NCBI GenBank assembly: GCA_025829515.1
Contig: GCA_025829515.1_4865.1
DNA length: 64,000 nucleotides
Reading direction: 5' to 3' (one strand)
Source: a phage
A program made the translations under genes and the position numbers. Below the pieces are notes generated by a model. That model made no database searches. It had not been told where the DNA came from and saw only the letters and a list, made by a program, of their open reading frames with translations. This document shows, piece by piece, positions 1 through 26,686 of this stretch (positions are counted from its first letter, which is position 1; each line of letters begins with the position of its first letter).

Positions 1-40
1 TGCCGAGACCACTAAGAATGGTCGTAACACGGTAATTACG

Positions 41-1330
41 TTGGTAGGTAAACCCGGTAAAGGTTTCTCTGGGGAGTGCACGGTTTATTACGACCGTTTA
101 ACATTATCAGATCTATTTAAAATAGCTCCGCGCGTCTACGTACCACAAACGGCCAAGACCGTGCGGGATCTTCTCCCAGCTCTACGTGATTTATACGGTG
201 TTTGGTTATCTGATAGCAGTGTACAGTCGGTAGACGCGCCTATCAAATCGCTGGCAACGCCAACACGTATTAATTTAACCGCGTATAATAGCGTATGCTA
301 TCGCGGCTATATCCCGGTCGATTATTTGAATGAAGCCGTAGGGTACTATCCAGATTCTGGGCCAGGCAATAAATATTTGTTGGCAGGGGACAGCACAAAC
401 GGATACTTCGGTCACGTTTCTCAGCAAGAGTTATTTACCTTTGCTGAACTAAACAACCTAATTCGTCCTGATGTTTCCCCAACGAAAATGACTTTCGAGT
501 GGTTGAAATTTTTCAAGGACGGTAAGATTGTTTATCTACCGACTACCGGAACGTTAACAGCAACCTGGACGGCCCTTTATCAAGCGGGTGCCATTTTCGG
601 TACAGGTGACGCTGGTCCGTATCCAGACGGTATCGAACCTGTTGACCAGGCTTTGATTGTCACGAAAACTGAGAATAACAAGACGCATTATTACCGTGTC
701 TCCGTTCCGGTTAGCCCTGATTTATCAAAGGCCACGCCGTTGTGGCTTATTTCACAACTCGGTGACGGTTCTACGGGTGGCGACTGGGCAAATGACACCA
801 CGTTAACCAGAACCACCGTCTTCTTCACGCAACAACTGTTAACCGGGGGTAACCCTGTTAAAGTACAACGTTGCAATATGCGCGGTGGCTCAGTTGAATG
901 GGTAACCCTTGCAGATACCACTTACTGGTGGCCTGTTTTAGAGGAAATCAATAAGGACGACATCGTCTTACCTTTAGCTGATGTGGAAGGGGATGTTGTG
1001 TGGCGCGTTAGGGTTATTCCTAATGTACCATCACCACAACCTGATAGCATTCGCCCTCTTGCAGTCGAGGTTGCGACAACAGATGCGCCGAGACCTCTAG
1101 CAACAACTGCGGAACAGGTGGAAGAACCTATCAGCCCGATTGTGGTGGGTGAACCAAACGTCGATACTGCGCTGCCGTTATCGACAGTGTCGAAGAGCGT
1201 AGGTACAGTTAGGCCGATGGTTGTACTTGAACCACACGTCGACGCACCGCGTCCACTACCGCCTACTCAGGCAGAACCTCCACTTAAAACAGATTTAGCA
1301 ACCGCGAACGGTGAGTTGAACGGCTTCTAA
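41..1330 (+). CDS. putative tail fiber / receptor-binding protein, paralog family member (429 aa)
   Basis: ORF track; TTG start (all three frames hit stops within the first 35 nt, so nothing reads in from upstream). Shares GECT[IV]YYD[RK]L block with ORFs 3257 and 3563 and an AELNxLI...F[KE]...K[IG]...[LI]P block with ORF 2343. Pro-rich C-terminal repeats (VDAPRPL); terminal KTDLxTxNGELxGF motif shared with ORF 9967. Confidence 0.5.
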   Translation: MVGKPGKGFSGECTVYYDRLTLSDLFKIAPRVYVPQTAKTVRDLLPALRDLYGVWLSDSSVQSVDAPIKSLATPTRINLTAYNSVCYRGYIPVDYLNEAVGYYPDSGPGNKYLLAGDSTNGYFGHVSQQELFTFAELNNLIRPDVSPTKMTFEWLKFFKDGKIVYLPTTGTLTATWTALYQAGAIFGTGDAGPYPDGIEPVDQALIVTKTENNKTHYYRVSVPVSPDLSKATPLWLISQLGDGSTGGDWANDTTLTRTTVFFTQQLLTGGNPVKVQRCNMRGGSVEWVTLADTTYWWPVLEEINKDDIVLPLADVEGDVVWRVRVIPNVPSPQPDSIRPLAVEVATTDAPRPLATTAEQVEEPISPIVVGEPNVDTALPLSTVSKSVGTVRPMVVLEPHVDAPRPLPPTQAEPPLKTDLATANGELNGF

Positions 1331-1340
1331 GGAGTAACAG

Positions 1341-2339
1341 ATGGCTTTCACACTACGCTGGAAAAATGAAAATCCGGCAGGTTCAATTGTTAACATTTAT
1401 CGGGGCACGGCTAAAATAAATACAGCCGCATTACCAGCCCCTATTGCAACTTTAAGTAATGGCGAAACGGAATGGACGGACGAAACCGTTATTCTTAACA
1501 CCCGTTACTGGTATCTTTTAACAGTAACTGTTAACGGTCGTACCGTAGGTAGTCCACAAAAATCCATTGTCATTAAAAACCGTCGTGGTGTGGGTGGCGT
1601 CGACCAGATTAACTATTCCGATACTGACGACTTGGCGTTTCTGGGGCAGTTGCCGTTCGAAGAACAGATGACCTATGACGCGTTGCCTGCAGGCTTTCGT
1701 GCATTAACAGGGATATCGGGCACGGGCACGCTAATCATGAACAAGTTTTATCGTCATGGTAAAGTTTACTACATGATGAACAGCGGCGGACGATTTAACT
1801 CTACACTTTACTCGTGGAATGACATTTATAACGCGGGGCTTGTGTACGGTGTTGATGGATTTGGTCCTGATAACGGACGTGGGGATTTGGCAGGTGTTGA
1901 CCAGAGTGGGTTGTTTGAATGGCAAGGCGACACCTATCGGATGCGATTGCTGCGCGGTTTAACCGACGGGGACGAACCGACAGTAATGACATTGGATGAA
2001 TCGTTGCGAAACGCAGACCATGATGACTTGGAATATGGTCGCTGCGAATATAACGATTTTGTTTATCCGTTCGGAGAATGTATCCCTAACAAACAAATGC
2101 TCCCTAACTGGACTAATATTAGTCCAGCGTCCATTTATGGGAGCGGTAGCGCTTACCAAGGCAAAGGTTTCTTGTGCCAAGAACGTGATCCTGAATCGGG
2201 ATTAGTTCTGGTTCGCGGGTCTGCGCCTATCGATTCAAGCATAACCAATACGTCGAAACGTAACCTCTCCCAAGTTACGTTAGTTGATAGTGCTGAGAAG
2301 GTCGGTTTGTACGCATTCGTTATCGAGTTAGTGGAGTAA
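1341..2339 (+). CDS. putative tail fiber / adhesin paralog with Ig/FN3-like N-terminal module (332 aa)
   Basis: ATG with AAGGAG RBS. N-terminus (LRWKNEN...IVNIYRG...WYLLTVTVNG) is paralogous to ORF 2343 (LNWKQQ...IEIYRY...YQYRIVAVKG), and both end in IELV; beta-sandwich-like pattern is an inference. Confidence 0.5.
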   Translation: MAFTLRWKNENPAGSIVNIYRGTAKINTAALPAPIATLSNGETEWTDETVILNTRYWYLLTVTVNGRTVGSPQKSIVIKNRRGVGGVDQINYSDTDDLAFLGQLPFEEQMTYDALPAGFRALTGISGTGTLIMNKFYRHGKVYYMMNSGGRFNSTLYSWNDIYNAGLVYGVDGFGPDNGRGDLAGVDQSGLFEWQGDTYRMRLLRGLTDGDEPTVMTLDESLRNADHDDLEYGRCEYNDFVYPFGECIPNKQMLPNWTNISPASIYGSGSAYQGKGFLCQERDPESGLVLVRGSAPIDSSITNTSKRNLSQVTLVDSAEKVGLYAFVIELVE

Positions 2340-2342
2340 AAC

Positions 2343-3245
2343 ATGTCGATTATCTTAAACTGGAAACAACAGTCAGGTCAGACTTTAGATTCCATTGAAA
2401 TCTATCGTTACGACAACCCTAGACAAAGTGTTAACCCAGTAGCACCGGGGGAACCCATTGTAACACTACCAGGTAACACAACGACGTACGAGGACAAGAC
2501 CACCGAAGCGTATAAAACGTATCAATATCGCATCGTGGCGGTAAAGGGCACTGAAAAGGTTATGGGGCTGCCGATTGTACAGGGCGACTTTCCAATGACA
2601 GGGCCCGGCCCACAGGAACTTATTCGTGGCGATTGGCATCGTGGCTACTTTGGCACACTGACAAACAAAGAATTTATTCTTAACCATGCCGAGCTGAATG
2701 GTTTAATTGGCTTTAATGCCTGGAACCAAGCTCCAACATTGTTCCATAAATTCGTTTTCAAAGGACGCATTCTGTTCATTCCTGACACGGTGACCCGTTT
2801 AGGGACGTCGTGGGAAGAACAATACCGGCAAGGTCTGGCCTGGGGAACAGATGACTACGGTTTCCCGCCAGGGGGCGTCACTACCACTAACCAGCGTCGG
2901 ACATTTAATAAAGACGGTTACGAGTATGTGGTACGCTTGCCTCGACTCGGAGACTACAGTTATGGGCACAGCACCTACCTAAGCAGCGGTGGTTATTTTC
3001 AAGACGGCGAGTGGCACAACACGTTCGCAAGCTTGTTCCGGTACGCGGGCGTCGTAAGACGTTTTGGCGACTTACCGATGCGCTCCGGCGGTAGTCCAAC
3101 CGATTCAAGCGCAACATTGTTTGCCAACGGTCGTGACATCTACAACGCCTGGTACTATCGCAGCAACTCACCAGACTCACCATCGTATACCTATTCGACC
3201 GATAGCGCGTCGGTAGTCCACGTTATCGAATTGGTTCTTAGCTAA
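2343..3245 (+). CDS. putative tail fiber / adhesin paralog with Ig/FN3-like N-terminal module (300 aa)
   Basis: ATG 3 nt after the previous stop, GGAG RBS. Paralog of ORF 1341; central block shared with ORF 41. Confidence 0.5.
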   Translation: MSIILNWKQQSGQTLDSIEIYRYDNPRQSVNPVAPGEPIVTLPGNTTTYEDKTTEAYKTYQYRIVAVKGTEKVMGLPIVQGDFPMTGPGPQELIRGDWHRGYFGTLTNKEFILNHAELNGLIGFNAWNQAPTLFHKFVFKGRILFIPDTVTRLGTSWEEQYRQGLAWGTDDYGFPPGGVTTTNQRRTFNKDGYEYVVRLPRLGDYSYGHSTYLSSGGYFQDGEWHNTFASLFRYAGVVRRFGDLPMRSGGSPTDSSATLFANGRDIYNAWYYRSNSPDSPSYTYSTDSASVVHVIELVLS

Positions 3246-3256
3246 CAGGAGCTAAT

Positions 3257-3553
3257 ATGGGGTTTTACTCATCCACTGCACTTGAGCTGTTGTGTCGGCT
3301 CATTCAGCGGGATAATCCCCAACACGCAGGTCGAATCAGCGCAGATTCAATTGGGGAGTGTACGATCTATTACGATAAGTCGTTAAGCAGTAACACAGTG
3401 GCCGATGTTACCACCGCATCCAACTCGTTCGCTAATAAAGCGTACGGCCGCGCGGTTATCCAAACTGACGTCGAAGCAGCTGGAGTTAAAGGGATAGCGT
3501 ACTTCACCATAACAGCTAAAAATAGGCCCCGAAGGGCCTATTTTCTTTTTTAG
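3257..3553 (+). CDS. short N-terminal-module paralog of the receptor-binding family (98 aa), possibly a truncated remnant
   Basis: ATG with AGGAG RBS. Contains the RDNPQ and GECTIYYD motifs found at the N-termini of ORFs 3563 and 41. Its last codons overlap a strong terminator hairpin. Confidence 0.35.
   Translation: MGFYSSTALELLCRLIQRDNPQHAGRISADSIGECTIYYDKSLSSNTVADVTTASNSFANKAYGRAVIQTDVEAAGVKGIAYFTITAKNRPRRAYFLF
3523..3551 (+). terminator. rho-independent terminator (stem TAGGCCC / GGGCCTA, T-run)
   Basis: 7-bp GC-rich stem, CGAA loop, followed by TTTTCTTTTTT. Confidence 0.6.
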
Positions 3554-3562
3554 GACGTTGCA

Positions 3563-4882
3563 ATGATCAACTATAACAAACCTGTCATGCAGCTGGTTTG
3601 GGATCAGATTAATCGTGATAACCCGCAGCTCAAGAAACCACTCAACGCAACCAACGTGGCGTTATTACAAGGTCCTTTAACCAATGCCTTGCGCGATGGC
3701 CGCAACAGCCGTATAGTGGTAAACGGATTACAGGGTGGCGGTTACAGCGGTAAGATGGACATCTACTACGACCGCTTAAACCTTTCGCAGTATTTTAAAG
3801 GCGTCAGCGTACCGGTTAAAGTACCTTATCGGGCGACGTCCTACCGCGACATCATCGACCGGATTTCCGCAGCTTGTGGGCTGGTGCTTACTGCTGACGA
3901 TTTAACGTATCCTGACAGCCAGTTTGCAATGATCACTGTGGCAACGGGCGATCGGACGGTGGCGATTAAATCGGATAACCCCGCATTCACGGGTCACATT
4001 CCTATTAGCTTTATTCGTGAAGAGCCCAGCTTTGCCGACTTGTACCACACCACCGAAACCGGAGCTTGGGAACCCATGGATGTTTACAGCACGGTCTATC
4101 GACTCGACTGGAGCATGTACACCCAACAGATAATCAATATTCCAATGGGTACCCCGCTGCGACTAAACAGTAACTCGTACATGACCCAGTTCATCGCGGC
4201 GCTGTCGGCATGGTCGGGCATCCCGTTCACTATCGGTAATGCTGCTACCGATAACCCGTATGACCTCTATGGGTATGTCGCTACACGCAATAACAACCCA
4301 GGCTTAGACCCTGATATGCGTGGGGAGTACAATTACTGCGTGAAGTTGACGCCACCTGAGGATATGGGTAATCTCCGTCGTCCGTTCTTCTTGCACTTTG
4401 GTCCGAAAAATAACGTGGCCTATTTGGCGCAGGAAAAGGACGTCGAACGTTATGCGCGTTACATGAGGTTCCGGGAAACCAGCTCAAATTCGATGAGCGT
4501 CACGTTGTATCAAAACGAGTACGTGTTGACTCGGGCAGAATCGCCTGAAACTGCGGATGATTTAACGGGTTCCCCGTATGGCACTCGATACTGTACCGGG
4601 AGTATTCGACGGCTGATGCAACACGCGTTTCCGACCGAAGAGATGTTCCAAGAAAGTATTGCTAACCGACGTCGGGTACTGTACCACACTGCTTACACCA
4701 CCACGACATCAGCTATTACTTACCAGGGACTATACCGTAACGGATACCAATCCAAACAAATGACGAGCCTCTACTCGAATTACTGTAACTATTTCATCTA
4801 TTACGACCCAAGCAAAGGCGGCTATATGGTCTACAGTCCATATAGCAAAACCGCCCCGGTCCCTTGGTATCCAGCGCTATAG
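3563..4882 (+). CDS. putative tail fiber / receptor-binding protein (439 aa)
   Basis: ATG with RBS. N-terminal RDNPQ...YYDRLNLSQYF module; C-terminal YYDPSKGGYMVYSPYSKTAPVPW module shared with ORF 4897. Confidence 0.5.
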   Translation: MINYNKPVMQLVWDQINRDNPQLKKPLNATNVALLQGPLTNALRDGRNSRIVVNGLQGGGYSGKMDIYYDRLNLSQYFKGVSVPVKVPYRATSYRDIIDRISAACGLVLTADDLTYPDSQFAMITVATGDRTVAIKSDNPAFTGHIPISFIREEPSFADLYHTTETGAWEPMDVYSTVYRLDWSMYTQQIINIPMGTPLRLNSNSYMTQFIAALSAWSGIPFTIGNAATDNPYDLYGYVATRNNNPGLDPDMRGEYNYCVKLTPPEDMGNLRRPFFLHFGPKNNVAYLAQEKDVERYARYMRFRETSSNSMSVTLYQNEYVLTRAESPETADDLTGSPYGTRYCTGSIRRLMQHAFPTEEMFQESIANRRRVLYHTAYTTTTSAITYQGLYRNGYQSKQMTSLYSNYCNYFIYYDPSKGGYMVYSPYSKTAPVPWYPAL

Positions 4883-4896
4883 ACTAAGGTGTCACC

Positions 4897-7074
4897 ATGT
4901 CCTACACTCCTGATTTAGTGGCGACCGTGATTCGGTCGCTCAACCGTAAAAACGCGGTCGCCAAAGCAGTAGACCCCGCTAACGTACGCCTGGTGTCCGT
5001 GGCGCATCGTGACGAAAAAACCCTAGACGTCACACTGACAGGGGGTCCGGGGTATTCAAGTTACGGTCAAATTACGGCCCAAGTCACGAAGCAAAATATT
5101 GCTGATTATTTCGCCAAGGTTAAGTTGGATGCCATTCCCACTTGTGCGTCCATCCACGAACTGTTGCCGCATTTAGACACTCTACTAGGGATTACCTTTT
5201 TAACTGACGACTTTGAAGACCTGCCTATCACTTGGACAAACAATGCTGCGTGTATCACGTTCCAGGCGAAACAGACAAGTCTTATCTGGTACGGCAGCCA
5301 AACGCTAGATGTGATAAACGGTGACGTGGATATCAACACCGTCTACACTGTTACCAACATCATTCTCACGCTAAAGGCTGCGAATAAACAGCAGTGGATT
5401 AACTTCTACTCTAATGCAACCAAACGGATCGTGGATCTTGATAAAGTCGATGTCAGCTCCCCGATGTCCCCGGAGGATATAGGCCAAACCTCTGCGTATA
5501 ACAGCGTCGTAGCTTTGACCGCTAGACCGGGGAGCGGGATGTTTGGAACGAAGTATGTGTTCTTTTCACGTAACAAACTCGAGACATATGCAGGCAAAAC
5601 CACATACGTCCCGGATGATTTCACCGGTAGCCTGCACGATGCTCTGGCCATCGAGACACTCGGCATTCGGAGTGTTTTTGATGTAAACGAAATTGCTCCT
5701 GTAGAGAACCTGGCAGGCGAGTGGCCGAGACAAGTGCAATTGGCACCCGTAGAGGGTTCGTACAAAGTCATGGGCAGTGCCACGTTGAATGTGGCACGCT
5801 ATCAAGATAACGAGCAAACCCTTAACCTGAACTACACAACTACGTCGCAACTTTCGGACAGCTACTGGGCCACAACGTTGACCAACCATGCGGCGTGCGG
5901 GCGTTTGTTTGTTAACGTGACCGTAGATGCGGGGGCTTTCGTTTATCGCGACAGCAACCTGAAACCGACGTTCGTTATCGACGAATTGCCGCAAATTGGC
6001 GAGGTGGTTTGGAACTTCGTTAACCGGGGAACCATTCTTGGTCGTGGTGGTTCGGGTATGGTCTACTCTATGCCTGCGAACACATCAGCGGACGGAGCTG
6101 ACGCAATCCACATTACCGATGCCTTCCGCGGCAAAGTCACCATCGAAAACTACGGCACCATCGCCGGAGGTGGGGGCGGGGGCGACTACTATGCGTTTAG
6201 CACCACCAAGATCGGTGGAGCTGGTGGTGCGCCACTCGGGACAGGCGCGGTGGTGCCCAGCGGCACCAATAACCGTAACGGCTTAGCTGGGTCCCGTGAC
6301 AAAGGCGGTGCTACTCAGTTAGTCGTCGCACAATTTACCGGCTACCAGAGTCGCTACTATGGCGGTCCGGGTGGGGATTGGGGCCAGCCGGGACGATATA
6401 CAGCGTTCGAGCAATGGAACACCCCGGCTACCGGCTCGCCGATCTATGTCTACGGTCGTGAAGACGGGATGTCATGGACTCGCCCTGGGATGGCAGGCGA
6501 AGCCGTCGGTGGGAATAAAAGTATCGTCAACTGGGTATCCGTCGGAACGGTGAAACCGAATGTCACCAACGAGTACCAAGAGTTCCTCGACTACCTCGCA
6601 GATTTAGATGCCAACCGATTGGCCAGTGCGGATGGGATAGATAAAGTCACCGACCCAACCAAGCCTGTAGTTGTGGAGTTCTTAGGTACGATTATTTCAG
6701 GTACGCTGTTCCAAAAGCAAAACATACCCGGCGGTTTGGTGGGAACACCATACGGCGATGCTGTAGCCAACTTACCAGCCACCACATTGTTTGGTATCAT
6801 GGCACACTGTGTATCGGAGTTTGATATTGTGCACGACACTTGGCGTTACAACCGCGCGGTGATGTTCACGCTAAAACCCGCACCTACCGGGGCGATTAGC
6901 CTCGCTGTGGAACGCAACCGGGTGAAATCGGCTACCAGTAGTGCACCGGTGGAGAAGTTCTACGTCGATCGCTTCGTGTATTACGATGCGTATCTCGGTA
7001 AAATGATGGAATGTAATCCGTATACCAAATCTGCCCCTAAACCGTGGGTGCGGCCAACGATACCGTTATCGTAA
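4897..7074 (+). CDS. putative tail fiber protein with Gly-rich segment (725 aa)
   Basis: ATG with AAGGTG RBS. Gly-rich stretch (GGGGGGDYY...GGAGGAPLGTG); C-terminal YYDAYLGKMMECNPYTKSAPKPW module paralogous to the end of ORF 3563. Confidence 0.5.
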   Translation: MSYTPDLVATVIRSLNRKNAVAKAVDPANVRLVSVAHRDEKTLDVTLTGGPGYSSYGQITAQVTKQNIADYFAKVKLDAIPTCASIHELLPHLDTLLGITFLTDDFEDLPITWTNNAACITFQAKQTSLIWYGSQTLDVINGDVDINTVYTVTNIILTLKAANKQQWINFYSNATKRIVDLDKVDVSSPMSPEDIGQTSAYNSVVALTARPGSGMFGTKYVFFSRNKLETYAGKTTYVPDDFTGSLHDALAIETLGIRSVFDVNEIAPVENLAGEWPRQVQLAPVEGSYKVMGSATLNVARYQDNEQTLNLNYTTTSQLSDSYWATTLTNHAACGRLFVNVTVDAGAFVYRDSNLKPTFVIDELPQIGEVVWNFVNRGTILGRGGSGMVYSMPANTSADGADAIHITDAFRGKVTIENYGTIAGGGGGGDYYAFSTTKIGGAGGAPLGTGAVVPSGTNNRNGLAGSRDKGGATQLVVAQFTGYQSRYYGGPGGDWGQPGRYTAFEQWNTPATGSPIYVYGREDGMSWTRPGMAGEAVGGNKSIVNWVSVGTVKPNVTNEYQEFLDYLADLDANRLASADGIDKVTDPTKPVVVEFLGTIISGTLFQKQNIPGGLVGTPYGDAVANLPATTLFGIMAHCVSEFDIVHDTWRYNRAVMFTLKPAPTGAISLAVERNRVKSATSSAPVEKFYVDRFVYYDAYLGKMMECNPYTKSAPKPWVRPTIPLS

Positions 7075-7118
7075 TTTAACGAGGAACTTGACGGGTTTAA
7101 AGCCTGAAGATAATCCAT

Positions 7119-7152
7119 GCCCTCTTCCCCACGGGGAAGAGGCTTTCTTTTT
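7119..7152 (+). terminator. rho-independent terminator (CCTCTTCC...GGAAGAGG, T-run)
   Basis: GC-rich hairpin followed by CTTTCTTTTT; lies inside the 5' end of the track ORF 7117, which argues against that start. Confidence 0.6.
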
Positions 7153-7179
7153 ATGACCCTATCAACTCAGGAGGTTATC

Positions 7180-7770
7180 GTGGTCGATCGTTGGAGTAAA
7201 GAGGGCATTATTCGTGCCAAAGTAAACATCGAAGCCGGTTACGTTAATAACCCGAAAGATTTGGGCAAAGCAACGAACCGCGGTGTCACCGAACTCACTG
7301 CGCGCGAATATGGCTATAAAGGGGATATGCGTGACCTGAGCTTAGAAATCGCGTTAGACATTTACAACAAGCTCTGGTGGCAGCGGATGCGTTTAGACCA
7401 GATTATGAAAATGAATGTCCTGCTAGCTGACCGAATGTTTGATTTCGGCATTAACGCAGGACGCGGTAACTGTATCAAGTCCCTGCAACGTATTCTGAAC
7501 GTATTAAACCGTCAGGGTAAACTATACGATGATATCGATGCCGATGGTGGTATCGGGCCACGTACGTTAACAGCGTTAGAAGGCTTCATCAAAGCCCGTG
7601 GGGAAGAGGGCCTGAATCGACTGATGTTCGCTTTAACCTGTCATCAGGTTGCGTACTACACGGAAATCAGTGAAGGGCGTGAGGATAACGAAGAGTTTAC
7701 TTACGGCTGGTATGGCCGCGTCTATCAGGAAATGCCAGACTACGTGGCTAAGTTGGGGATGTGCAAATGA
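7180..7770 (+). CDS. GH108-family lysozyme-like protein with probable C-terminal peptidoglycan-binding domain
   Basis: Start revised to GTG at 7180 (AGGAGG RBS 5 nt upstream; the track start at 7117 would include the terminator). N-terminal EAGYVNNPKDLGKATNRGVT...GDMRDL...IY...LWW matches the conserved GH108 N-terminal signature from established knowledge of that family. Confidence 0.6.
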   Translation: MVDRWSKEGIIRAKVNIEAGYVNNPKDLGKATNRGVTELTAREYGYKGDMRDLSLEIALDIYNKLWWQRMRLDQIMKMNVLLADRMFDFGINAGRGNCIKSLQRILNVLNRQGKLYDDIDADGGIGPRTLTALEGFIKARGEEGLNRLMFALTCHQVAYYTEISEGREDNEEFTYGWYGRVYQEMPDYVAKLGMCK

Positions 7771-8058: not shown

Positions 8059-8700
8059 ATGGAAGCACTTAAGTATAAGTTGTTAGAGAAGCCGTGGTTT
8101 ATCCTCACGGATGATTTCCATTTCGAGTTTACGTTGCGCAGCCTCTATCGTGAACACGCCGGAATGGATGCGATGGTAGCATTAGCAGGTCTGCATCCGG
8201 ATACCCCGTTATGGGTAACGGTACCGAAAGGATTTGTGACGGACCTGGCAAGCATTCCAGAAGCGTTACGTCCTATCCTGCATCCGGATGGGCCTTGGGC
8301 TGCTGCCGCTTGTGTGCATGATTTGTTTTACCAGAAACGTTCATCGGTAGGCTTTTACCCTGACACTGTCGAAGGTAATCTATCTCGTGCATGTGACAAA
8401 ACATTCGCTGACCTGATGTTCTTACGTATCATGGAGGCATTAGGCGTTGACACCTTTATTCGTAAGTCCTTCTACCATGCCGTTCACGAGTTTGGTTGGC
8501 CGTCCTATGTAGACGATAACTCTAAGGTGGTTTATAGCCGGCCGGTAGAAAAGACGTTGTCCTATAATCGCAACTACCTGTTCTTTAGAACGTCGCGTAC
8601 GTTAGCGATTCCTGAACACGAACGTGTTGACATTACTAATGGGCAACCGGTAAACGTGCAGTATTTGAATATCAAACGTGCGTTCCTGACTACCCCTTAA
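8059..8700 (+). CDS. DUF1353-like phage protein (213 aa)
   Basis: VPKGFVTDLASIP...AAAACVHDLFY resembles the DUF1353 signature (VPxGFxTDGASIP...HD); GAGG RBS. Confidence 0.5.
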   Translation: MEALKYKLLEKPWFILTDDFHFEFTLRSLYREHAGMDAMVALAGLHPDTPLWVTVPKGFVTDLASIPEALRPILHPDGPWAAAACVHDLFYQKRSSVGFYPDTVEGNLSRACDKTFADLMFLRIMEALGVDTFIRKSFYHAVHEFGWPSYVDDNSKVVYSRPVEKTLSYNRNYLFFRTSRTLAIPEHERVDITNGQPVNVQYLNIKRAFLTTP

Positions 8701-8709
8701 GGAGAGAAA

Positions 8710-9225
8710 ATGTTTCATCCGAATCCTGCCAACTTCGCGTTAAAAGAGTTGATGCCGCAGGAGTACATCGCGAAATACGGTGAAGGTGCTATTCGTTTCC
8801 TTAATCCGTTACTGCTAATCTCGCTCCAACAGATTCGTAATCGTTTTGGGCGGATGGTGATTTTAACCAGTTCCCAGCAACAGCGTAGTCTGCGTACCCT
8901 GCAGTTCTTTATTAATCAAGAGAAACCAAAGGGTGGAGATTGGCAAACTCGTGCAAACAAACTGTACGCCGAATCAGGCAGTATGCATAAATTCGGTAAT
9001 GCGTTTGATGCAACAATGCTTGATACTCCGTTGCAGAAAGTACACGACTATATTGCCGCGAACCCTAACGAGTTTCCGTTTATTCACTTTATCGAGTGCG
9101 ATATTACCTGGCTGCATGTTGACGTACGCAACCAGCCTGATATCACCTTCTGGTCACCGACACGTGGTACCGTTAAAGTGGTTAAGCAACAACCCATCGA
9201 TTGGAGCAAGCTAGTTAAAATCTAA
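8710..9225 (+). CDS. peptidase M15-family (VanY / L-alanoyl-D-glutamate peptidase-like) cell-wall hydrolase
   Basis: HKFGNAFDAT and WLHVDVRN motifs match the H-x-x-G-x-A-x-D and H-V-D/E zinc-ligand motifs of M15 phage endolysins; AAGGAGAG RBS. Confidence 0.6.
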   Translation: MFHPNPANFALKELMPQEYIAKYGEGAIRFLNPLLLISLQQIRNRFGRMVILTSSQQQRSLRTLQFFINQEKPKGGDWQTRANKLYAESGSMHKFGNAFDATMLDTPLQKVHDYIAANPNEFPFIHFIECDITWLHVDVRNQPDITFWSPTRGTVKVVKQQPIDWSKLVKI

Positions 9226-9317: not shown

Positions 9318-9348
9318 CTTACCCACTCCCCTTACGGGAGTGGGTAAG
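9318..9348. terminator. bidirectional terminator hairpin (CTTACCCACTCCC / GGGAGTGGGTAAG)
   Basis: Perfect 13-bp stem, 5-nt loop, flanked by A-rich 5' and T-rich 3' tracts; sits between convergent genes 8710(+) and 9351(-). Confidence 0.6.
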
Positions 9349-9966: not shown

Positions 9967-10494
9967 ATGGCAGTCATCTCTGCAAAAGACCAACTCGTCG
10001 CGCTGTTTAATGCTGCAAACAGCGGACTGTCTAGTCCGTTAACTTCTGCTGACGTTACATTCGGCGCTGTTGCTGACTATTCACCAGCAGATTCTGGAGA
10101 CACCCGCAACTCCAAACTCACCATCACTGCCACCGCGGAATCCGCTAACTTTACTGGCGAGAAAGAGCTGCATTATACCCGCCTCGATTCATTGAACATC
10201 ATCGGTGCGAAAGCAGTTACCGCTGACCAGGCAGAATGGGATACCGATGAAGAAGTGCTTGCTTTTGTCAACGCAGATCTAATTGCCGCCGGTAAAACGG
10301 AAGATGCGTTTGCATTGTCTGAACTCACCATTTCACGCGAGGACGGCGACAGTGGTGAGAAAATCATCACTGTTATGGTGAAAGAAGGCCACATTAAATA
10401 CCAGCCTGCCAGCCTTGCAGTTTATACTGTAACGCAGCCAATCGTTAAAACTGACCTGAGCACCACCAACGGTGAACTGGACGGATTCGTTTAA
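9967..10494 (+). CDS. hypothetical protein, possible virion component (175 aa)
   Basis: AAGGAA RBS; C-terminal VKTDLSTTNGELDGFV is near-identical in pattern to the C-terminus of ORF 41. Confidence 0.5.
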   Translation: MAVISAKDQLVALFNAANSGLSSPLTSADVTFGAVADYSPADSGDTRNSKLTITATAESANFTGEKELHYTRLDSLNIIGAKAVTADQAEWDTDEEVLAFVNADLIAAGKTEDAFALSELTISREDGDSGEKIITVMVKEGHIKYQPASLAVYTVTQPIVKTDLSTTNGELDGFV

Positions 10495-10534: not shown

Positions 10535-10558
10535 CCTACCTCCCTTCGGGGAGGTAGG
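10535..10558. terminator. bidirectional terminator hairpin (CCTACCTCCC-TTCG-GGGAGGTAGG)
   Basis: 10-bp stem, TTCG tetraloop, A-run upstream and T-run downstream; between convergent genes. Confidence 0.6.
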
Positions 10559-10575: not shown

Positions 10576-11247
10576 TTACATGCCGAGTGACTCGGACAAT
10601 GTTTTTAATCCAGTGTAATCGCGCTTTTCAGCTAACTCACGGATTTGGCGTTTGTTATCTGCCATTGCTGAGTGCAACACCTGGTCACGTGCAACAATAG
10701 CGGCCAGCAACGCTTTACATTGGGCTACTGTAAACGGACTGTGCTTAGTATTCAGCGTATCGAGCCAGTATTCTGGTGCGGTATCTGCCTGAATGTATTG
10801 ACCGAGGATGGTACGCGACGATTCATCGGCTTGAAAGTGGCTACCTTCAAACTCGATATAACCATGGCGCTCATCTTCGTAGCGGTGGTCGAGTTCCAAC
10901 AGCATCTTCTGCACGTCTTCGTAAATGTAACGCGCGGTAGATTTCAGATTCCCGCGAATTTCGTCGAGGTCAATCTCCAGCACATTAGCAATAAACTCTT
11001 TCGTGCGTTTCAATGTGAAGTTAGCTTCAATCTCCGACATCTCATACAGCTTCATGCGTGCCAGGGCTTCTTTATCAGACATCCCTTCGATGAGATGGTA
11101 ATGGAGTAATGCACAAAATCCGGTACGGCCCTGATCCTGCGCACCGATTCGTTCCATGAAATTACCGTGACGATCAATCGGCAAATCACGCTGGAAATAA
11201 CGGGCGCGGATCTCTTCGTTCGTTAAGCTTTTGTCAGTAACAGACAT
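10576..11247 (-). CDS. hypothetical protein, last gene of the rSAM/Cys-rich module (223 aa)
   Basis: ATG with GAGGAGG RBS; 25-nt overlap with the upstream gene suggests translational coupling. No recognisable motif. Confidence 0.5.
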   Translation of the reverse strand: MSVTDKSLTNEEIRARYFQRDLPIDRHGNFMERIGAQDQGRTGFCALLHYHLIEGMSDKEALARMKLYEMSEIEANFTLKRTKEFIANVLEIDLDEIRGNLKSTARYIYEDVQKMLLELDHRYEDERHGYIEFEGSHFQADESSRTILGQYIQADTAPEYWLDTLNTKHSPFTVAQCKALLAAIVARDQVLHSAMADNKRQIRELAEKRDYTGLKTLSESLGM

Positions 11248-11789
11248 TCGTCCTCCTCAATCAGGCCAAGTTCTAACAACAAACCGAAGTCCAGCATCTG
11301 GAAGTCCTGATCGAGGTTACCGGCCCACAACAGAGAAATGTTGTGTTGCTCTTCTTCTTCCAACTGCGGGAGCAGGTGTTCTTCGAAGATTTGACGCTCT
11401 GTGTAATAAGCGTCAACCGGGTTATTGGAGCGTAAGTTACGAATACGCATCCGCGGGAAAGACAAGCCCAAAGCCACTAAACTTTCAGGACTGGCTTCAT
11501 CAATAGAGTGACGTAGCAGTTCGATTTTGTGGCGTGGGTATGCAAGCAGTCGCTTCTCAAAGCCAGGGTTGCGCTTTTCGATTTCCGCGACAGACTCGTG
11601 TCCTTTCTCAACGCAGTAGACCGGGATCATCACGTTCAGCCCGTATTTAATCAACAGGCTTTGGATTTCATCAGTGAAGTCTTCCCCTGCCACAATTGCG
11701 TGCACATTGTACAGCTTGCTTTTGCGCAGGAAGCGATCGACCAAGTGCAGTTTACGCTTCGTAAAATTGTGAATCAGTATTGACTTCAT
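11223..11789 (-). CDS. hypothetical protein in rSAM module (about 189 aa from ATG 11789)
   Basis: Start chosen at the internal ATG with ACGGAG RBS; the track start at 11867 would overlap the rSAM gene by about 116 nt. Confidence 0.4.
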   Translation of the reverse strand: MKSILIHNFTKRKLHLVDRFLRKSKLYNVHAIVAGEDFTDEIQSLLIKYGLNVMIPVYCVEKGHESVAEIEKRNPGFEKRLLAYPRHKIELLRHSIDEASPESLVALGLSFPRMRIRNLRSNNPVDAYYTERQIFEEHLLPQLEEEEQHNISLLWAGNLDQDFQMLDFGLLLELGLIEEDECLLLTKA

Positions 11790-13080
11790 TCTGGGCTCCG
11801 TTTTGTAATTTTTCTGCTTCGGCACGTTGGCGTACACAACGTGAACAATAGCACATGGATTTATCATGCAAATCTGATGCGCGAGTCGTACCAGTTTTCT
11901 GATACCAATATTCCGCCGCCATCAGCTTCGCAGTAGTCCAACCACACTGACGACGCTCGGCGTGATACGCTTTACGGTCTTCCAGTGTACCTTCACCGTT
12001 TTCGTACGATGCTGCTGCGCAGCTACCGCAGCTGTGTTTCATCGGACACCCTAAACAGGTTTCTGGGTAGTTGGTGTACTGCGTTTGAATCTCTTCTAAC
12101 AGCTTACCGCCGTCCAGGCTCACAAACTCACGACCAACCAGTTCCGCTACAGCAGAGCGGGAAGTTACCGTGGACATGAAACGGTTACAACCGTAAATCT
12201 TGCGATCAAAGCCGAGACAGGTCATGTGCGTCAACGTACCGCAGTACGGTTTCAGGCGTTCTGGGTCGAGACGAACAGAGTCGTCATGTAAGAGTTTGTC
12301 ACGCCAATCCGGGTCCCAAGTTGCCATAAAGTTCAGGCCATCCGGGATGATGTGTGTAATCGTGTTACGCGGGTTGGTGTGCAGACCCTTCTCAATCCAG
12401 TAGTCCATCACGTCCATCATCTGGTTCGCGATATCCAACGCCATATGGCGCGGCAGGATATCTTCGTACGTTACGTTACCAGAGATGGTACCACCGCCGG
12501 ACATGTCAATTAACGATTTCATGCTGGCGGCATAGTGCGGCAATGTATCGATCGTAAACGTCGCCTTTACGCCCAGCTCAGCGATGCCAACACTCTTCAG
12601 ATAATTGTAACCGCGTACCGCAGCTTCGTACGACCCTTCACGCGTCGTGGTAAAGATACGATATTTGTCATGGACTTCAGGTAAACCATCGATGGAGACC
12701 CCAATAGACAGTTTGTCTTTCCAGCGCTCGATAATTTCTTTGTTCAGCGGACGGTCCAGAAGCGTACCGTTCGTGGAGATACTGAACATATACGGGCGAT
12801 TGTGTTCTGCGCATAACTTCTCTGCGGTTTCAAAGGCCGCCAAAAGAAGTTTAGGCTGCATGAACGGCTCACCACCGATGATATCGATGATGACTTCAAC
12901 GTTCGGGATATCTTTATCACGCTCGAAACAAGCGTGGATAAAATCAATCACGTCTGCTACTTTGTTGTTACGCGGATATTTACGCTCGTAGCAGTATTCG
13001 CAGTCCAGGTTACATGACAGGTTAGTCACAACCTGATACGTGCGTGGTGTGTACTGGATTTGCTGTTCGCTATTACTCAT
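11752..13080 (-). CDS. radical SAM enzyme with Cys-rich C-terminal SPASM-like domain (442 aa), putative peptide/protein maturase
   Basis: N-terminal CNLDCEYCY (CxxxCxxC radical-SAM cluster motif); C-terminal Cys cluster (CLGCPMKHSCGSCAA...CGW...CYCSRC) typical of SPASM auxiliary Fe-S domains (anSME / sacti- / ranthipeptide maturase type). Confidence 0.7.
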   Translation of the reverse strand: MSNSEQQIQYTPRTYQVVTNLSCNLDCEYCYERKYPRNNKVADVIDFIHACFERDKDIPNVEVIIDIIGGEPFMQPKLLLAAFETAEKLCAEHNRPYMFSISTNGTLLDRPLNKEIIERWKDKLSIGVSIDGLPEVHDKYRIFTTTREGSYEAAVRGYNYLKSVGIAELGVKATFTIDTLPHYAASMKSLIDMSGGGTISGNVTYEDILPRHMALDIANQMMDVMDYWIEKGLHTNPRNTITHIIPDGLNFMATWDPDWRDKLLHDDSVRLDPERLKPYCGTLTHMTCLGFDRKIYGCNRFMSTVTSRSAVAELVGREFVSLDGGKLLEEIQTQYTNYPETCLGCPMKHSCGSCAAASYENGEGTLEDRKAYHAERRQCGWTTAKLMAAEYWYQKTGTTRASDLHDKSMCYCSRCVRQRAEAEKLQNGAQNEVNTDSQFYEA

Positions 13081-13987
13081 TGTTCGCCGCCCGTTTACGC
13101 TTAGCAGAAATTACACGGTTGATGTAGTTATACGCATCAACGCCGATAGAACGCGCCAGGCGATTACAGCCGACTTCCAATATCTCTGGGGCGTTCTGAA
13201 TTTGCTCCTGCGTACCGTCGGCGTTAAGCCACAGCACTTCACTGCACGTGTTGCACTCGGTATCGAACATTTTACTGATCGCAAGCCCACATTCAGAATC
13301 GTTCTGCATGTTAAGGCGTTCGATATTGTCGAGTATTTTCCAATACCCGTACATGAAGTTCATGACGTGGTCTGGCGATAACGGTTTCGGCATCATCGCA
13401 TCAAACAACAACGACACACCACCTGGACGGTAATGATAGATTGCTCGGTGCAGCTCGATGAAATCTTCGTACCAGCGTTTATCACCTAACTGGTCACGCG
13501 TCATCACACCCCAGGTGTAATAGTTGTCCAGCTCGTACAGCACTTCCAGCGCTTCGTGATTACCACCGTTTACAAAGTTCATAAACGGACGTTCCGACTT
13601 CTTGTAGCCGTCAATGGACACAAAGATAAGGTCGAACTGTTTCAGCAACGGCAGATGTGACTTACGCATCTTTAAACCGTTGGTGTACATGTGATGACGG
13701 AGGTTCGGATGAGACTCCTTCAACTCGTTCACGAAGTCTTCAATCTTACGCTGCGCTAACAGCGGCTCACCGCCCGTCCAATGAATCTCACCGATATCCG
13801 GATTCTTCTCTAAAATAGAGAGAATCTCTTCACGTTGAAACTCACGAGAAGTATCTTCTCTATCCATGTAATAAGCCCCTCCACAGAAGCTACAGTCTAA
13901 GTTACACTTAGAAGTTGCGACAACCGACAGAATTGACGGTTTGTCGTACAGTTCAGACGAGATCCTGGATTCTACTTGATCTGTCAT
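13073..13987 (-). CDS. radical SAM enzyme (second maturase-like, about 304 aa from ATG 13987)
   Basis: SKCNLDCSFCGG (CxxxCxxC) near the N-terminus; C-terminal ECGLAIS...ECNTCSE...GCN partial auxiliary-cluster (twitch-like) pattern. The track TTG start at 14023 is an alternative. Confidence 0.65.
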   Translation of the reverse strand: MTDQVESRISSELYDKPSILSVVATSKCNLDCSFCGGAYYMDREDTSREFQREEILSILEKNPDIGEIHWTGGEPLLAQRKIEDFVNELKESHPNLRHHMYTNGLKMRKSHLPLLKQFDLIFVSIDGYKKSERPFMNFVNGGNHEALEVLYELDNYYTWGVMTRDQLGDKRWYEDFIELHRAIYHYRPGGVSLLFDAMMPKPLSPDHVMNFMYGYWKILDNIERLNMQNDSECGLAISKMFDTECNTCSEVLWLNADGTQEQIQNAPEILEVGCNRLARSIGVDAYNYINRVISAKRKRAANNE

Positions 13988-14009
13988 TGCAGGTTGCTCC
14001 AGTATATTT

Positions 14010-14897
14010 TTAAATATAATCAATGGCGAATAAAGGATCTTCGTCTACATTAGCGCCGGGCACCAGTAACATCGGGTCGTGATAGGCAGCTAAAATTTTG
14101 TTCAGGTCGGCGTGTCTTTCGTTCAGGCGTTTCAAATCGGCCAACGTTACCGAACGACCACGAATCTCAGAAACAGCTTCTGCTTCTTCTTTCGTTAAAT
14201 CCACCTTCGTTAAGAGGAAACTTACCAGCTTACTCAAATCCGCTTCCGTCGCCGGATAATCCCCATATCGGGTTTGAACCAGATGTTGCATCCACGGTTT
14301 ACGAATACGTTTGGTGATTTCAAAATCGTCAGTCAACGCATACCAGACAGAACGCTTTTTATCCCACACGAACTTATAGCTATACGCCATCATGTCCGCT
14401 AAACGGGTGATGCCAAGTTCTTTATACCCCTCGATATCGATGTATGGTTCGGTGTCGAAATACGTTTCCGTATCGGCAGGTACCAGTACAAAGTAGTAAG
14501 GGAACGAGCCCAGATAGTCCGGACTCCACCAACGGCGCGCCATCGGTTTTGCTTCAAGTTCGTCAAACGGTGTAAACATCAGTTCTAAATCGACGCTGTT
14601 GTTCAAAATCCCTTCACTGAAGAAATACTTACCGTCGACTAACACGCCACGAGAGTTACCATCGCCGTTAAAGATAACGATGGCCTCTGCAACCATATCA
14701 CGGATCTTAAACGTATTTTCTACGGTGTAGTTCTTCTTGTCGGTCAAGAAGCGACCACGAACCTTTGGCCACTCACCAGGAATCTGTGCAATCAGTCTGA
14801 CTTTGTCAGCAAGGTGCGCACGCACTGAATCTGGGGAAGATAGATGCAGCGGGTGGTTGAATGTGGTTTTATACGCAAGATGCAAATCGTTTTTCAT
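14010..14897 (-). CDS. hypothetical protein between Cys-rich genes and rSAM genes (295 aa)
   Basis: ATG with GGAG RBS; no recognisable motif; candidate leader-recognition or accessory protein by position only. Confidence 0.5.
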   Translation of the reverse strand: MKNDLHLAYKTTFNHPLHLSSPDSVRAHLADKVRLIAQIPGEWPKVRGRFLTDKKNYTVENTFKIRDMVAEAIVIFNGDGNSRGVLVDGKYFFSEGILNNSVDLELMFTPFDELEAKPMARRWWSPDYLGSFPYYFVLVPADTETYFDTEPYIDIEGYKELGITRLADMMAYSYKFVWDKKRSVWYALTDDFEITKRIRKPWMQHLVQTRYGDYPATEADLSKLVSFLLTKVDLTKEEAEAVSEIRGRSVTLADLKRLNERHADLNKILAAYHDPMLLVPGANVDEDPLFAIDYI

Positions 14898-22448: not shown

Positions 22449-22481
22449 TGCAAACACTCCTAATCTGTAATAAAACGGAGA

Positions 22482-22542
22482 CCGCCCTCCCAATAACGGA
22501 AGGGCGGTTTACCTACGGACTACCCGCCCGTAGGCAGTCCGT
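22482..22542 (-). promoter_or_regulatory. paired intergenic hairpins between the fibre genes (partial terminator / RNA processing candidate)
   Basis: CCGCCCT...AGGGCGG and ACGGACT...AGTCCGT stems (with alternative CCTACGG/CCGTAGG pairing); in the minus sense they are followed by a U-rich tract just before the RBS of gene 22448. Confidence 0.35.
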
Positions 22543-22543
22543 C

Positions 22544-26674: not shown

Positions 26675-26686
26675 TCAAAAATCTCC

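What the first reader, a model, noticed from the sequence alone, without database searches (positions are those of the whole stretch)
41..7074. Array of six mosaic paralogous receptor-binding-like genes built by domain shuffling
Modules recur in different combinations: the RDNPQ/GECTxYYD[RK]L N-module in ORFs 41, 3257 and 3563; the FN3-like N-module in 1341 and 2343; the AELNxLI central module in 41 and 2343; the YYD...Y[ST]K[ST]AP.PW C-module in 3563 and 4897. Such combinatorial paralogy suggests recent recombination driving adsorption specificity. Whether these are distal fibre tips, adhesins or chaperones is unresolved.
Basis: seen in the sequence. Interest (0 to 1): 0.5.

Follow-up and report, generated by a model that had tools for sequence, protein, structure and literature searches.

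The report
Known jumbo-phage virion fibre-protein gene array
This stretch is the end of the already published 'paralog family B' (DUF7941) virion-protein gene array of SPN3US-like Salmonella jumbo phages: five modular genes and one decayed remnant that probably build adhesive fibres, though it is still disputed where they sit on the virion.

Summary
The window is an SPN3US-like Seoulvirus, about 98% identical in DNA. They are not new. The genes are SPN3US gp151-gp155, the end of 'paralog family B' (Thomas 2016, Ali 2017). Its N-module is Pfam DUF7941, described in 2026 as a Chimalliviridae-specific, filament-forming docking module.

Corrections to the finding:
- ORF 41 is cut by the window edge.
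- The array extends upstream, as three tandem three-gene cassettes after seven full-length DUF7941 genes.
- ORF 3257 is a decaying junction remnant, not a sixth gene.
- F also carries the N-module, and B also carries the central module.

Added here:
- F has a Gp38-type polyglycine adhesin domain.
- The E/F C-module may be LCCL-like and has been swapped between orthologues.
- B and C are FN3 plus a 'body' module. Elsewhere that module is fused in tandem or to lectin, Kelch and Ig domains.
- Cassette number varies from 1 to 3 between relatives through unequal recombination.

All five proteins are virion proteins by published proteomics, but they stay with tailless heads. That conflicts with a tail-fibre-tip reading and with the baseplate model from phiKZ and Goslar.

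Verdict: observation confirmed, interpretation partly supported, already known, modest interest.

The parts
1..1330 (+). Gene A (SPN3US gp151 orthologue, 'type 1'). It is cut by the window start; the true ATG lies 113 nt upstream and the full protein is 480 aa.
   Evidence: The frame is open from base 2. DNA is 98% identical to SPN3US gp151. It matches phrog_3589 at 6.7e-138. SPN3US gp151 was detected in virions.
8..331 (+). A: DUF7941 N-terminal docking domain. Its first ~40 residues lie outside the window.
   Evidence: Pfam PF25613 1.6e-18, residues 3-110 against profile positions 43-153. blastp to the E N-terminal domain gives 4e-12.
320..964 (+). A: body/central module shared with B and C (contains FAELNNLI).
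   Evidence: hhalign probability 99.4%, E 4e-21, residues 107-243. phrog_1062 covers residues 111-321. blastp A-C gives 9e-15.
974..1285 (+). A: Pro/Val-rich, repeat-like tail with motifs of the form x-R-P-[LIM]-x-V. It is hypervariable between orthologues.
   Evidence: Composition and sequence. Variability between orthologues.
1286..1327 (+). A: conserved C-terminal peptide KTDLATANGELNGF, inferred to be a docking or assembly peptide.
   Evidence: The GEL[DN]GF C-terminus is kept in nearly all (19 of 21) type-1 proteins compared from Seoulvirus, Phobos, CR5 and Erwinia phages, and in gp160. It occurs only twice in the window, both times at a C-terminus.
1341..2339 (+). Gene B (gp152 orthologue, 'type 2'): FN3-like N-domain (about 1341-1586) plus body module.
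   Evidence: phrog_1062 1.1e-50. blastp B-C 1e-6 and A-B 1e-4. gp152 is found in virions and in tailless heads.
2343..3245 (+). Gene C (gp153 orthologue, 'type 3'): FN3 domain (2343-2588) plus body module (2595-3242). The C-terminal ~100 residues are the most variable among close homologues.
3257..3553 (+). psi-D: a 98-codon in-frame remnant. It joins the 5' end of a type-1 gene to the 3' end of a full-length DUF7941 gene, and looks like a rearrangement scar.
   Evidence: Residues 1-33 are 61% identical to the gp148 N-terminus. Residues 21-83 are 50% identical to gp144 residues 210-271. There is a 1-nt deletion before the ancestral stop. SPN3US and most relatives carry a further ~130-140-nt deletion flanked by GTCGAA[T/G]CAGC. 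The 3' part, the terminator and the E start are syntenic with Phobos gp143-gp144. The exact ORF is present on at least 15 contigs.
3519..3553 (+). Intrinsic-terminator-like hairpin and T-run that closes the cassette operon. It overlaps the end of psi-D.
   Evidence: Terminator scan: 11-bp stem plus T-run. It is conserved in SPN3US, SPLA3, EC001 and Phobos.
3563..4882 (+). Gene E (gp154 orthologue): a complete DUF7941 unit followed by a C-module. NTD 3563-4027, disordered linker 4028-4090, CTD 4091-4477, C-module 4499-4879.
4897..7074 (+). Gene F (gp155 orthologue): DUF7941 NTD (4927-5361), spacer, Gp38-type polyglycine adhesin domain (6013-6555) and the same C-module as E (6562-7053).
   Evidence: Pfam DUF7941 6e-23 and GP38 PF05268 5.8e-18. 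phrog_2056 'tail fiber protein; host specificity' 3e-19 and phrog_6409. PDB 6f45_D at E 0.0018 and 9v85 at 0.011. gp155 is found in virions and in tailless heads.
7121..7142 (+). Terminator-like hairpin after F that closes the E-F unit.
   Evidence: Terminator scan: 9-bp stem with 6 GC pairs.
9967..10494 (+). Outlying family member (gp160 orthologue): DUF7941 NTD plus the same C-terminal peptide as A. In SPN3US it is one of the most abundant virion proteins.
   Evidence: Pfam DUF7941 4e-11. C-terminus ...KTDLSTTNGELDGFV. Abundance from Ali 2017 Supplementary Table 1.

Best explanation
The segment is the distal end of the DUF7941 ('paralog family B') virion-protein array of an SPN3US-type jumbo phage.

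Layout:
- The last of three tandem three-gene cassettes. A is a DUF7941 docking domain, a body module, a Pro-rich tail and a conserved C-terminal peptide. B and C are each FN3 plus the same body module.
- A decayed junction scar (psi-D) followed by a terminator.
- A two-gene unit. E is a complete DUF7941 link with a C-module. F is a DUF7941 docking domain, a Gp38-type polyglycine adhesin domain and the same C-module.

Proposed mechanism (inferred):
- The DUF7941 N-domains and the C-terminal linker or peptide plug these proteins head-to-tail into flexible DUF7941 filaments on the outside of the virion.
- The appended body/FN3, Gp38-like and C-modules are displayed as host-surface binding units (LPS O-antigen and/or flagella).
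- The array evolves by duplication and unequal recombination of whole cassettes and by exchange of C-terminal modules.

Shown here: homology, module boundaries, folds, polymorphisms. Shown in the literature: virion presence of the 97-99% identical SPN3US proteins, filament formation by a Goslar DUF7941 protein, and phiKZ gp127 placed in the baseplate periphery.

Inferred: incorporation of A, E and F into such filaments, their binding function, and the attachment site, which is unresolved (head/neck or baseplate).
For: - Identity with SPN3US gp151-155.
- DUF7941 hits above the gathering score in A, E and F, and in the gp160 homologue.
- The Goslar preprint reports head-to-tail AF3 models, gp22 filaments by negative stain, and DUF7941 N-domains fused to carbohydrate-binding, hydrolase or LRR domains.
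- phiKZ gp127 is docked into the outer baseplate map.
- F has a Gp38 domain.
- In other proteins the body module is found in tandem (3, 4 or 8 copies) and fused to ConA-like lectin, Kelch propeller, Big_13 and DUF7941 NTD.
- A C-module swap exists between E orthologues.
- Variability in C is concentrated at its C-terminus.
- The C-terminal GEL[DN]GF peptide is shared by type-1 proteins and gp160.
- Cassette number ranges from 1 to 3, and the three genes of a cassette are inherited together.
- All five SPN3US orthologues are detected in purified virions.
- Seoulviruses depend on LPS or flagella.
Against: - SPN3US proteomics on two independent tailless mutants keeps gp151-155 with DNA-filled heads at wild-type levels. 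The authors therefore call them head proteins, some 'ejection?'. No fibres on SPN3US heads have been reported.
- The phiKZ gp127 placement rests on docking a predicted model at about 4.4 A.
- Binding by any module is untested.
- F is nearly invariant across phages isolated on different hosts.
- Cassette 3 (A, B, C) is dispensable in EC001, Lh1B and SPLA3.
Confidence: 0.6

Rival explanations
1. Internal head (inner-body or ejection) proteins. On this view the family is packaged inside the capsid and released into the cell, as the SPN3US papers tentatively label it ('Head', 'Head ejection?').
For: gp151-155 and the rest of family B are retained at wild-type levels in CsCl-purified tailless particles of 64_112(am27) and 255(am107), while tail proteins drop to 4% or less. 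Some members are very abundant, for example gp160 and gp141.
Against: - The domain content is typical of extracellular adhesion: Gp38 adhesin, FN3, and partner lectin, Kelch and Ig domains in homologues.
- None of the family is among the proteins processed by the prohead protease.
- phiKZ gp127 maps to the baseplate periphery.
- Goslar gp22 forms long filaments in vitro.
- Retention with tailless heads shows association with heads, not an internal location.
Confidence: 0.15
2. Classical tail-fibre distal tips, adhesins or chaperones arranged as in T-even phages (gp37/gp38).
For: F has a Gp38 domain. One database record names the orthologue 'tail fiber adhesin Gp38'. The downstream gene is annotated 'tail assembly chaperone' (DUF1353).
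Against: - In F the Gp38 N-terminal gp37-attachment region is replaced by a DUF7941 domain.
- There is no gp37-like trimeric shaft gene in the array.
- The proteins are not lost with the tail.
- The tail-assigned fibre/baseplate candidates gp168-170 lie elsewhere in the window, on the other strand.
- Chaperones would not be stoichiometric virion components.
Confidence: 0.1
3. Largely redundant structural decoration. On this view the cassettes are drifting duplicates with no role in host recognition, and copy number varies because they are dispensable.
For: Cassette 3 has been lost at least twice independently and is broken in SPLA5c. psi-D is decaying.
Against: - Orthologous cassettes have been kept intact since the Seoulvirus-Derbicusvirus split, at 43-63% identity.
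- All nine cassette proteins are expressed and incorporated in SPN3US.
- There are hundreds of FN3+body clusters in metagenomes.
- SPLA1a and SPLA5c differ in sensitivity to O-antigen glucosylation and also differ in this region, although this is only a correlation.
Confidence: 0.15

Closest known systems
SPN3US 'Paralog family B' (gp83, gp138-154, gp160, gp237; Thomas et al. 2016 PMC5105663; Ali et al. 2017 PMC5694885)
   Same: These are the same genes. A, B, C and E are 97-99% identical orthologues of gp151, gp152, gp153 and gp154. The family was published as the largest paralogue family in any phage, and all members were detected in virions.
   Different: The papers treat the family as one PSI-BLAST family of head proteins. 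They do not describe the module map, the three-gene cassettes, the FN3/body subfamilies, the Gp38 domain of gp155 (which they leave outside the family) or the psi-D scar.
DUF7941 (PF25613) fibre proteins of Chimalliviridae: Goslar gp22/gp23/gp86/gp92/gp161 and phiKZ gp126/gp127 (bioRxiv 10.64898/2026.04.21.720040; PMC13250141)
   Same: The N-module of A, E, F and gp160 is this domain. E has the gp22 plan of NTD, disordered linker and CTD, and matches phiKZ gp127 structurally. N-terminal DUF7941 followed by recognition domains is the same design logic.
   Different: The appended modules here (body module, Gp38-like domain, C-module) differ from the Goslar ones (carbohydrate-binding, glycoside hydrolase, LRR). 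The baseplate 'fibre cloud' model conflicts with the SPN3US tailless-head proteomics. B and C lack DUF7941 altogether.
T-even / S16 Gp38 tail-fibre adhesin (PF05268; PDB 6F45)
   Same: F residues 373-553 match the polyglycine-rich receptor-recognition domain (Pfam 66 bits against a cut-off of 25; PDB 6f45_D, 9v85).
   Different: The N-terminal domain that attaches Gp38 to the gp37 fibre tip is replaced by DUF7941 plus a spacer. An extra C-module follows. No gp37-like partner is present.
Multi-receptor-binding-protein systems with a conserved N-terminal anchor and exchangeable C-terminal domains (branched fibres of jumbo phage phiKp24, PMC9700779; named from my own knowledge as an analogy)
   Same: A conserved docking domain is followed by a variable binding domain. 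Several paralogues are encoded side by side, and recombination occurs at domain borders.
   Different: There are no trimeric tailspike or beta-helix folds here. The docking module is DUF7941. The attachment site is unknown.

Membership tests
DUF7941 / SPN3US paralog family B | Pfam PF25613 match above the gathering score (27 bits) | tested here: met
   A 67.6 bits, E 93.9, F 82.1 and the gp160 homologue 43.3. Not met by D (24.4 bits), B or C (no hit). B and C belong to the published family only through the body module they share with A.
DUF7941 / SPN3US paralog family B | [quoted passage not shown] | tested here: met
DUF7941 / SPN3US paralog family B | Head-to-tail oligomerisation into filaments | not testable with these tools
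   No multimer prediction or biochemistry was available. Only the conserved C-terminal GEL[DN]GF peptide suggests a docking element.
DUF7941 / SPN3US paralog family B | Component of the purified virion | not testable with these tools
   Taken from the literature for 97-99% identical orthologues: gp151-155 are all detected.
Gp38 tail-fibre adhesin (PF05268) | Polyglycine-rich receptor-recognition domain | tested here: met
   Pfam 5.8e-18, 66 bits against 25, F residues 373-553. phmmer to 6f45_D gives E 0.0018, with aligned GGGGG and GG-x-G runs.
Gp38 tail-fibre adhesin (PF05268) | N-terminal attachment domain that caps a gp37-type trimeric fibre | tested here: not met
   The Pfam match starts at profile position 61. 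The N-terminus of F is DUF7941. The array has no gp37-like gene. F therefore carries a Gp38-like domain but is not a Gp38 orthologue.
Fibronectin type III domain | Seven-strand beta-sandwich superposable on FN3 | tested here: met
LCCL domain | LCCL fold and Pfam PF03815 signature | tested here: inconclusive

The most novel reading that the evidence does not exclude
In SPN3US-type phages the DUF7941 fibres, including the Gp38-type adhesin gp155, are anchored on the head or neck rather than on the baseplate. This would reconcile the tailless-head proteomics with their adhesin-like domains. Each three-gene cassette would build one unit of three body modules, the split equivalent of the single-chain proteins elsewhere that carry three tandem body modules. 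Cassette number, set by unequal recombination, would tune primary capture of the host through glucosylated or unglucosylated O-antigen or flagella.
Probability: 0.25. Interest if true: 0.65.

Novelty: already known. Interest (0 to 1): 0.33.

Why it matters
Neither the paralogy nor its N-module is new. The useful outcome is a sharper and testable picture of a large virion component that is still not understood functionally in nucleus-forming jumbo phages.

- Two lines of published evidence disagree on where these proteins sit. SPN3US proteomics says head. The phiKZ cryo-EM map and the Goslar model say baseplate periphery. Neither paper cites the other's data.
- gp155, with a recognisable Gp38 adhesin domain, is a convenient handle for resolving this.
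- Natural cassette-number variants (2 or 3 cassettes; hybrid in SPLA5c) and the C-module swap give ready-made material for host-range tests. These matter for Seoulvirus phages already proposed for Salmonella biocontrol.

Tried and rejected
- DNA-level direct repeats in 1-7200: none of 18 nt or more. Recent duplication or gene conversion inside the window is therefore rejected.
- PDB sequence search with the E profile found nothing. With the B/C profile it found only FN3-type N-domains and weak PsbQ' hits (E about 6e-4), which I regard as chance.
- Pfam test of the LCCL idea was negative.
- A second DUF7941 repeat in F (residues 171-360) got only E 0.017-0.004 and is not claimed.
- Chaperone role: rejected, because the proteins are virion components.
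- T4-type trimeric fibre: rejected. No shaft gene is present, and the C model is a compact two-domain monomer (pTM 0.88).
- psi-D as a functional mini-protein: considered. It is in frame and identical on at least 15 contigs. It is judged unlikely because of two internal deletions, a 1-nt frameshift before the ancestral stop, read-through into a terminator, and truncation to about 31 codons in viable SPN3US.
The tables were read directly or searched by locus tag.
Full report
**Identity of the window**

Bases 1-7200 are 97-99% identical to Salmonella jumbo phage SPN3US and other Seoulvirus genomes. Window position 1 corresponds to 113 nt inside SPN3US gene SPN3US_0151. The six ORFs correspond as follows:

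| Label | Window coordinates | SPN3US equivalent | Note |
|---|---|---|---|
| A | frame open from base 2, ends 1330 | gp151 | the TTG at 41 is an artefact of the window edge |
| B | 1341-2339 | gp152 | |
| C | 2343-3245 | gp153 | |
| D | 3257-3553 | not annotated | |
| E | 3563-4882 | gp154 | |
| F | 4897-7074 | gp155 | |

The endolysin follows (GH108 + PG_binding_3). All six are on the + strand with gaps of 3-14 nt. Terminator-like hairpins sit at 3519-3544 and 7121-7142. This gives the transcription units [... A B C D] and [E F].

**Checking the observation**

| Pair | Region | E-value |
|---|---|---|
| A-E | N-termini | 4e-12 |
| A-F | N-termini | 3e-4 |
| B-C | residues 1-205 / 1-201 | 1e-6 |
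| A-C | central region | 9e-15 |
| A-B | central region | 1e-4 |
| E-F | C-termini | 2e-7 (6e-10 when isolated) |

Independent profile evidence agrees:
- Pfam DUF7941 is found in A, E and F at 1e-18 to 1e-26.
- PHROG families split the proteins into the same pieces.
- hhalign of A against a 56-sequence profile of B/C-type proteins gives 99.4% probability and E 4e-21.

It needs four amendments.
- F also carries the N-module.
- B also carries the central module.
- D is not an intact gene.
- The window shows only the end of a much longer array.

**The whole array**

In SPN3US, seven full-length DUF7941 genes (gp138-144, 265-303 aa) come first. Three tandem three-gene cassettes follow: gp145-147, gp148-150 and gp151-153. 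Then come gp154 and gp155.

Each cassette has the same three gene types.
- Type 1 is a DUF7941 N-domain, a body module, a Pro-rich tail and a conserved C-terminal peptide.
- Type 2 is FN3-like plus body (about 330 aa).
- Type 3 is FN3 plus body (about 300 aa).

Identity between cassettes is only 30-47%. The window has no DNA repeat of 18 nt or more. The duplications are therefore old.

Cassette number and order differ in relatives. Erwinia phage Phobos has three cassettes and Cronobacter phage CR5 has one. In both, the E and F homologues lie before the cassettes.

Orthology is cassette-wise:

| Cassette pair | Identity for types 1 / 2 / 3 |
|---|---|
| SPN3US cassette 1 and Phobos cassette 1 | 50 / 63 / 56% |
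| Window cassette (A, B, C) and Phobos cassette 2 | 43 / 58 / 55% |
| Phobos cassette 3 and the CR5 cassette | 50 / 34 / 40% |

The three genes therefore travel as a unit.

**ORF D**

D is a composite of pieces from other family members.
- Residues 1-33 are 61% identical to the N-terminus of gp148.
- Residues 33-41 equal gp151 residues 61-70.
- Residues 21-83 are 50% identical to the C-terminal domain of gp144.

Its 3' part, the terminator and the E start are syntenic with the end of Phobos gp143 and the start of the Phobos E homologue.

Relative to intact genes, D lacks a 29-residue block of the N-domain and most of the rest of the protein. It also has a 1-nt deletion just before the ancestral stop, so it reads on into the terminator. 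SPN3US and most other Seoulviruses carry a further deletion of about 130-140 nt, flanked by the microhomology GTCGAA[T/G]CAGC, which leaves about 31 codons. The intact 98-codon allele is found in SPLA5c and on at least 15 assembled contigs.

I read D as the scar of the rearrangement that moved the cassette block in front of E. It is dispensable and decaying.

**Presence/absence polymorphism**

Three rearrangements were found.
- SPLA3 lacks the whole third cassette, that is A, B and C. After gp150 it keeps the first ~100 nt of gp151, joined at GAAT|CAGC to the 3' remnant of D.
- EC001 and Lh1B, isolated on E. coli, also lack the cassette but have a different junction (ATGGGGTTGT|ATAGCG). This is an independent loss.
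- SPLA5c has a gp149/gp152 hybrid. Its junction lies at window 1824-1935, inside the best-conserved DNA stretch shared by the two paralogues (145 nt at 74%). An 83-nt tandem duplication there breaks the frame.

Unequal recombination between paralogous segments is therefore reshaping the array at present.

The SPLA paper reports that SPLA1a and SPLA5c differ in sensitivity to O-antigen glucosylation (gtrB). [quoted passage not shown] This is suggestive but only a correlation.

**What the modules are**

*Adhesin domain of F.* F residues 373-553 are a Gp38-type polyglycine receptor-recognition domain (Pfam 66 bits; PDB 6f45 and 9v85; phrog_2056 'host specificity'). The gp37-attachment part of Gp38 is replaced by DUF7941.

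- three times in tandem in one chain (P0118, 694 aa);
- as 4 or 8 copies;
- behind ConA-like lectin or Kelch-propeller domains;
- together with Big_13 domains;
- directly behind a DUF7941 N-domain (P0175).

These partners are typical of surface adhesion proteins. The three-in-one chains are a Rosetta-stone hint that the three body modules of a cassette act together.

*C-terminal peptide of type 1.* All type-1 proteins and the abundant small family member gp160 (window 9967-10494; DUF7941 4e-11) end in K-x-x-[LI]-x-x-x-x-GEL[DN]GF. This holds even at about 30% overall identity and after a hypervariable tail. In the window the motif occurs only at these two C-termini. I infer a docking or assembly peptide.

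**What is already known**

Thomas et al. 2016 and Ali et al. 2017 described gp138-154 and a few outliers as 'Paralog family B', the largest paralogue family in any phage. They detected all members, and gp155, in purified virions.

A 2026 preprint on phage Goslar defines DUF7941 as Chimalliviridae-specific. It shows that gp22 forms filaments and predicts head-to-tail docking. It notes N-terminal DUF7941 domains fused to recognition domains, and it proposes a baseplate-anchored 'fibre cloud'. That proposal relies on phiKZ gp127 in the baseplate periphery.

The finding is therefore already known in substance.

**The unresolved conflict**

In SPN3US, two independent tailless mutants retain family B at wild-type levels in CsCl-purified, DNA-filled heads.

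| Protein | PSMs in wild type | PSMs in tailless heads |
|---|---|---|
| gp152 | 148/113/134 | 139/166/164 |
| gp153 | 71/71/65 | 72/72/70 |
| gp154 | 118/106/127 | 95/99/112 |
| gp155 | 199/218/209 | 140/130/128 |

True tail proteins fall to 4% or less.

The tail-assigned fibre/baseplate candidates gp168-170 lie elsewhere in this same window, on the minus strand (17265-30400). The Goslar preprint does not mention the SPN3US data.

A protein with a Gp38 adhesin domain that behaves as a head protein is the most interesting point here. Three readings are possible:
- head- or neck-anchored external fibres;
- self-assembled filaments that co-purify with heads;
- internal proteins.

The domain content and the fusion partners favour an external, adhesive role. 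The reported receptors of Seoulviruses, flagella for SPN3US and LPS for SPLA1a/5c, are compatible with that role.

**Verdict**

As far as I could find, the following are new details:
- the cassette structure and its orthology;
- the independent cassette losses and their junctions;
- the psi-D scar;
- the conserved C-terminal peptide;
- the C-module swap;
- the wider distribution and tandem fusions of the body module.

The kind of system is already described.

Noticed in passing
window 9967-10494 (+) and 10576-11247 (-): The gp160 homologue is a DUF7941 protein (4e-11) that ends in the same GELDGF peptide as gene A. The neighbouring gp161 homologue is DUF4376 and has no blastp similarity to the family. 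Ali 2017 lists 'gp161' as a family B member in the text but 'gp160' in its tables, so the text number looks like a slip.
   Followed up: partly
window 7117-7770 (+): The listed ORF start at 7117 lies upstream of a terminator-like hairpin (7121-7142). Gene calls on related contigs give a 205-aa endolysin (GH108 + PG_binding_3), so the real start is probably the ATG near 7153.
   Followed up: partly
window 17265-30400 (-): Three very large ORFs of 1742, 1376 and 1237 aa match in size SPN3US gp168, gp169 and gp170 ('paralog family C', phiKZ gp131-like). These are the tail-assigned baseplate/fibre candidates. The window therefore holds both the canonical fibre genes and the DUF7941 array.
   Followed up: no
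hits H23-H30 (SPFM1, 5-10, 12, 14, 15, 20): About a dozen SPFM genome records align to this region only as 40 or more short pieces at roughly 34% coverage. They yield frameshifted protein fragments (for example P0022, P0024, P0082-P0087). This looks like indel-rich assemblies rather than biology.
   Followed up: no
hit H16 (MT679221 'Proteus phage 7'): A phage recorded as isolated on Proteus mirabilis is 98% identical to the window across the whole array, including 97% identity in F. Either the host range crosses genera or the host label is doubtful.
   Followed up: no
window 8059-8700 and 8710-9225 (+): A DUF1353 protein, annotated 'tail assembly chaperone' in RefSeq, and a weak M15-peptidase-like protein follow the endolysin. 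The 2023 SPN3US proteomics labels both orthologues (gp157, gp158) 'Non-virion'. The genes may therefore belong to a lysis cluster rather than to tail assembly.
   Followed up: no
window 9318-9348 and 10535-10558: Two strong hairpins score as terminators on both strands. They flank the convergent or divergent small genes around the gp160 homologue.
   Followed up: no
phiKZ literature: phiKZ gp143 is listed as a DUF7941 protein in the Goslar preprint. A 2025 Tn-seq preprint says it is dispensable and cites another preprint that calls it a lysis regulator next to endolysin gp144. Here too the last DUF7941 gene (F) directly precedes the endolysin.
   Followed up: no
window 11752-14023 (-): Two adjacent ORFs correspond to the SPN3US radical SAM domain proteins gp163 and gp164. 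This is an unusual gene content for a phage structural region.
   Followed up: no
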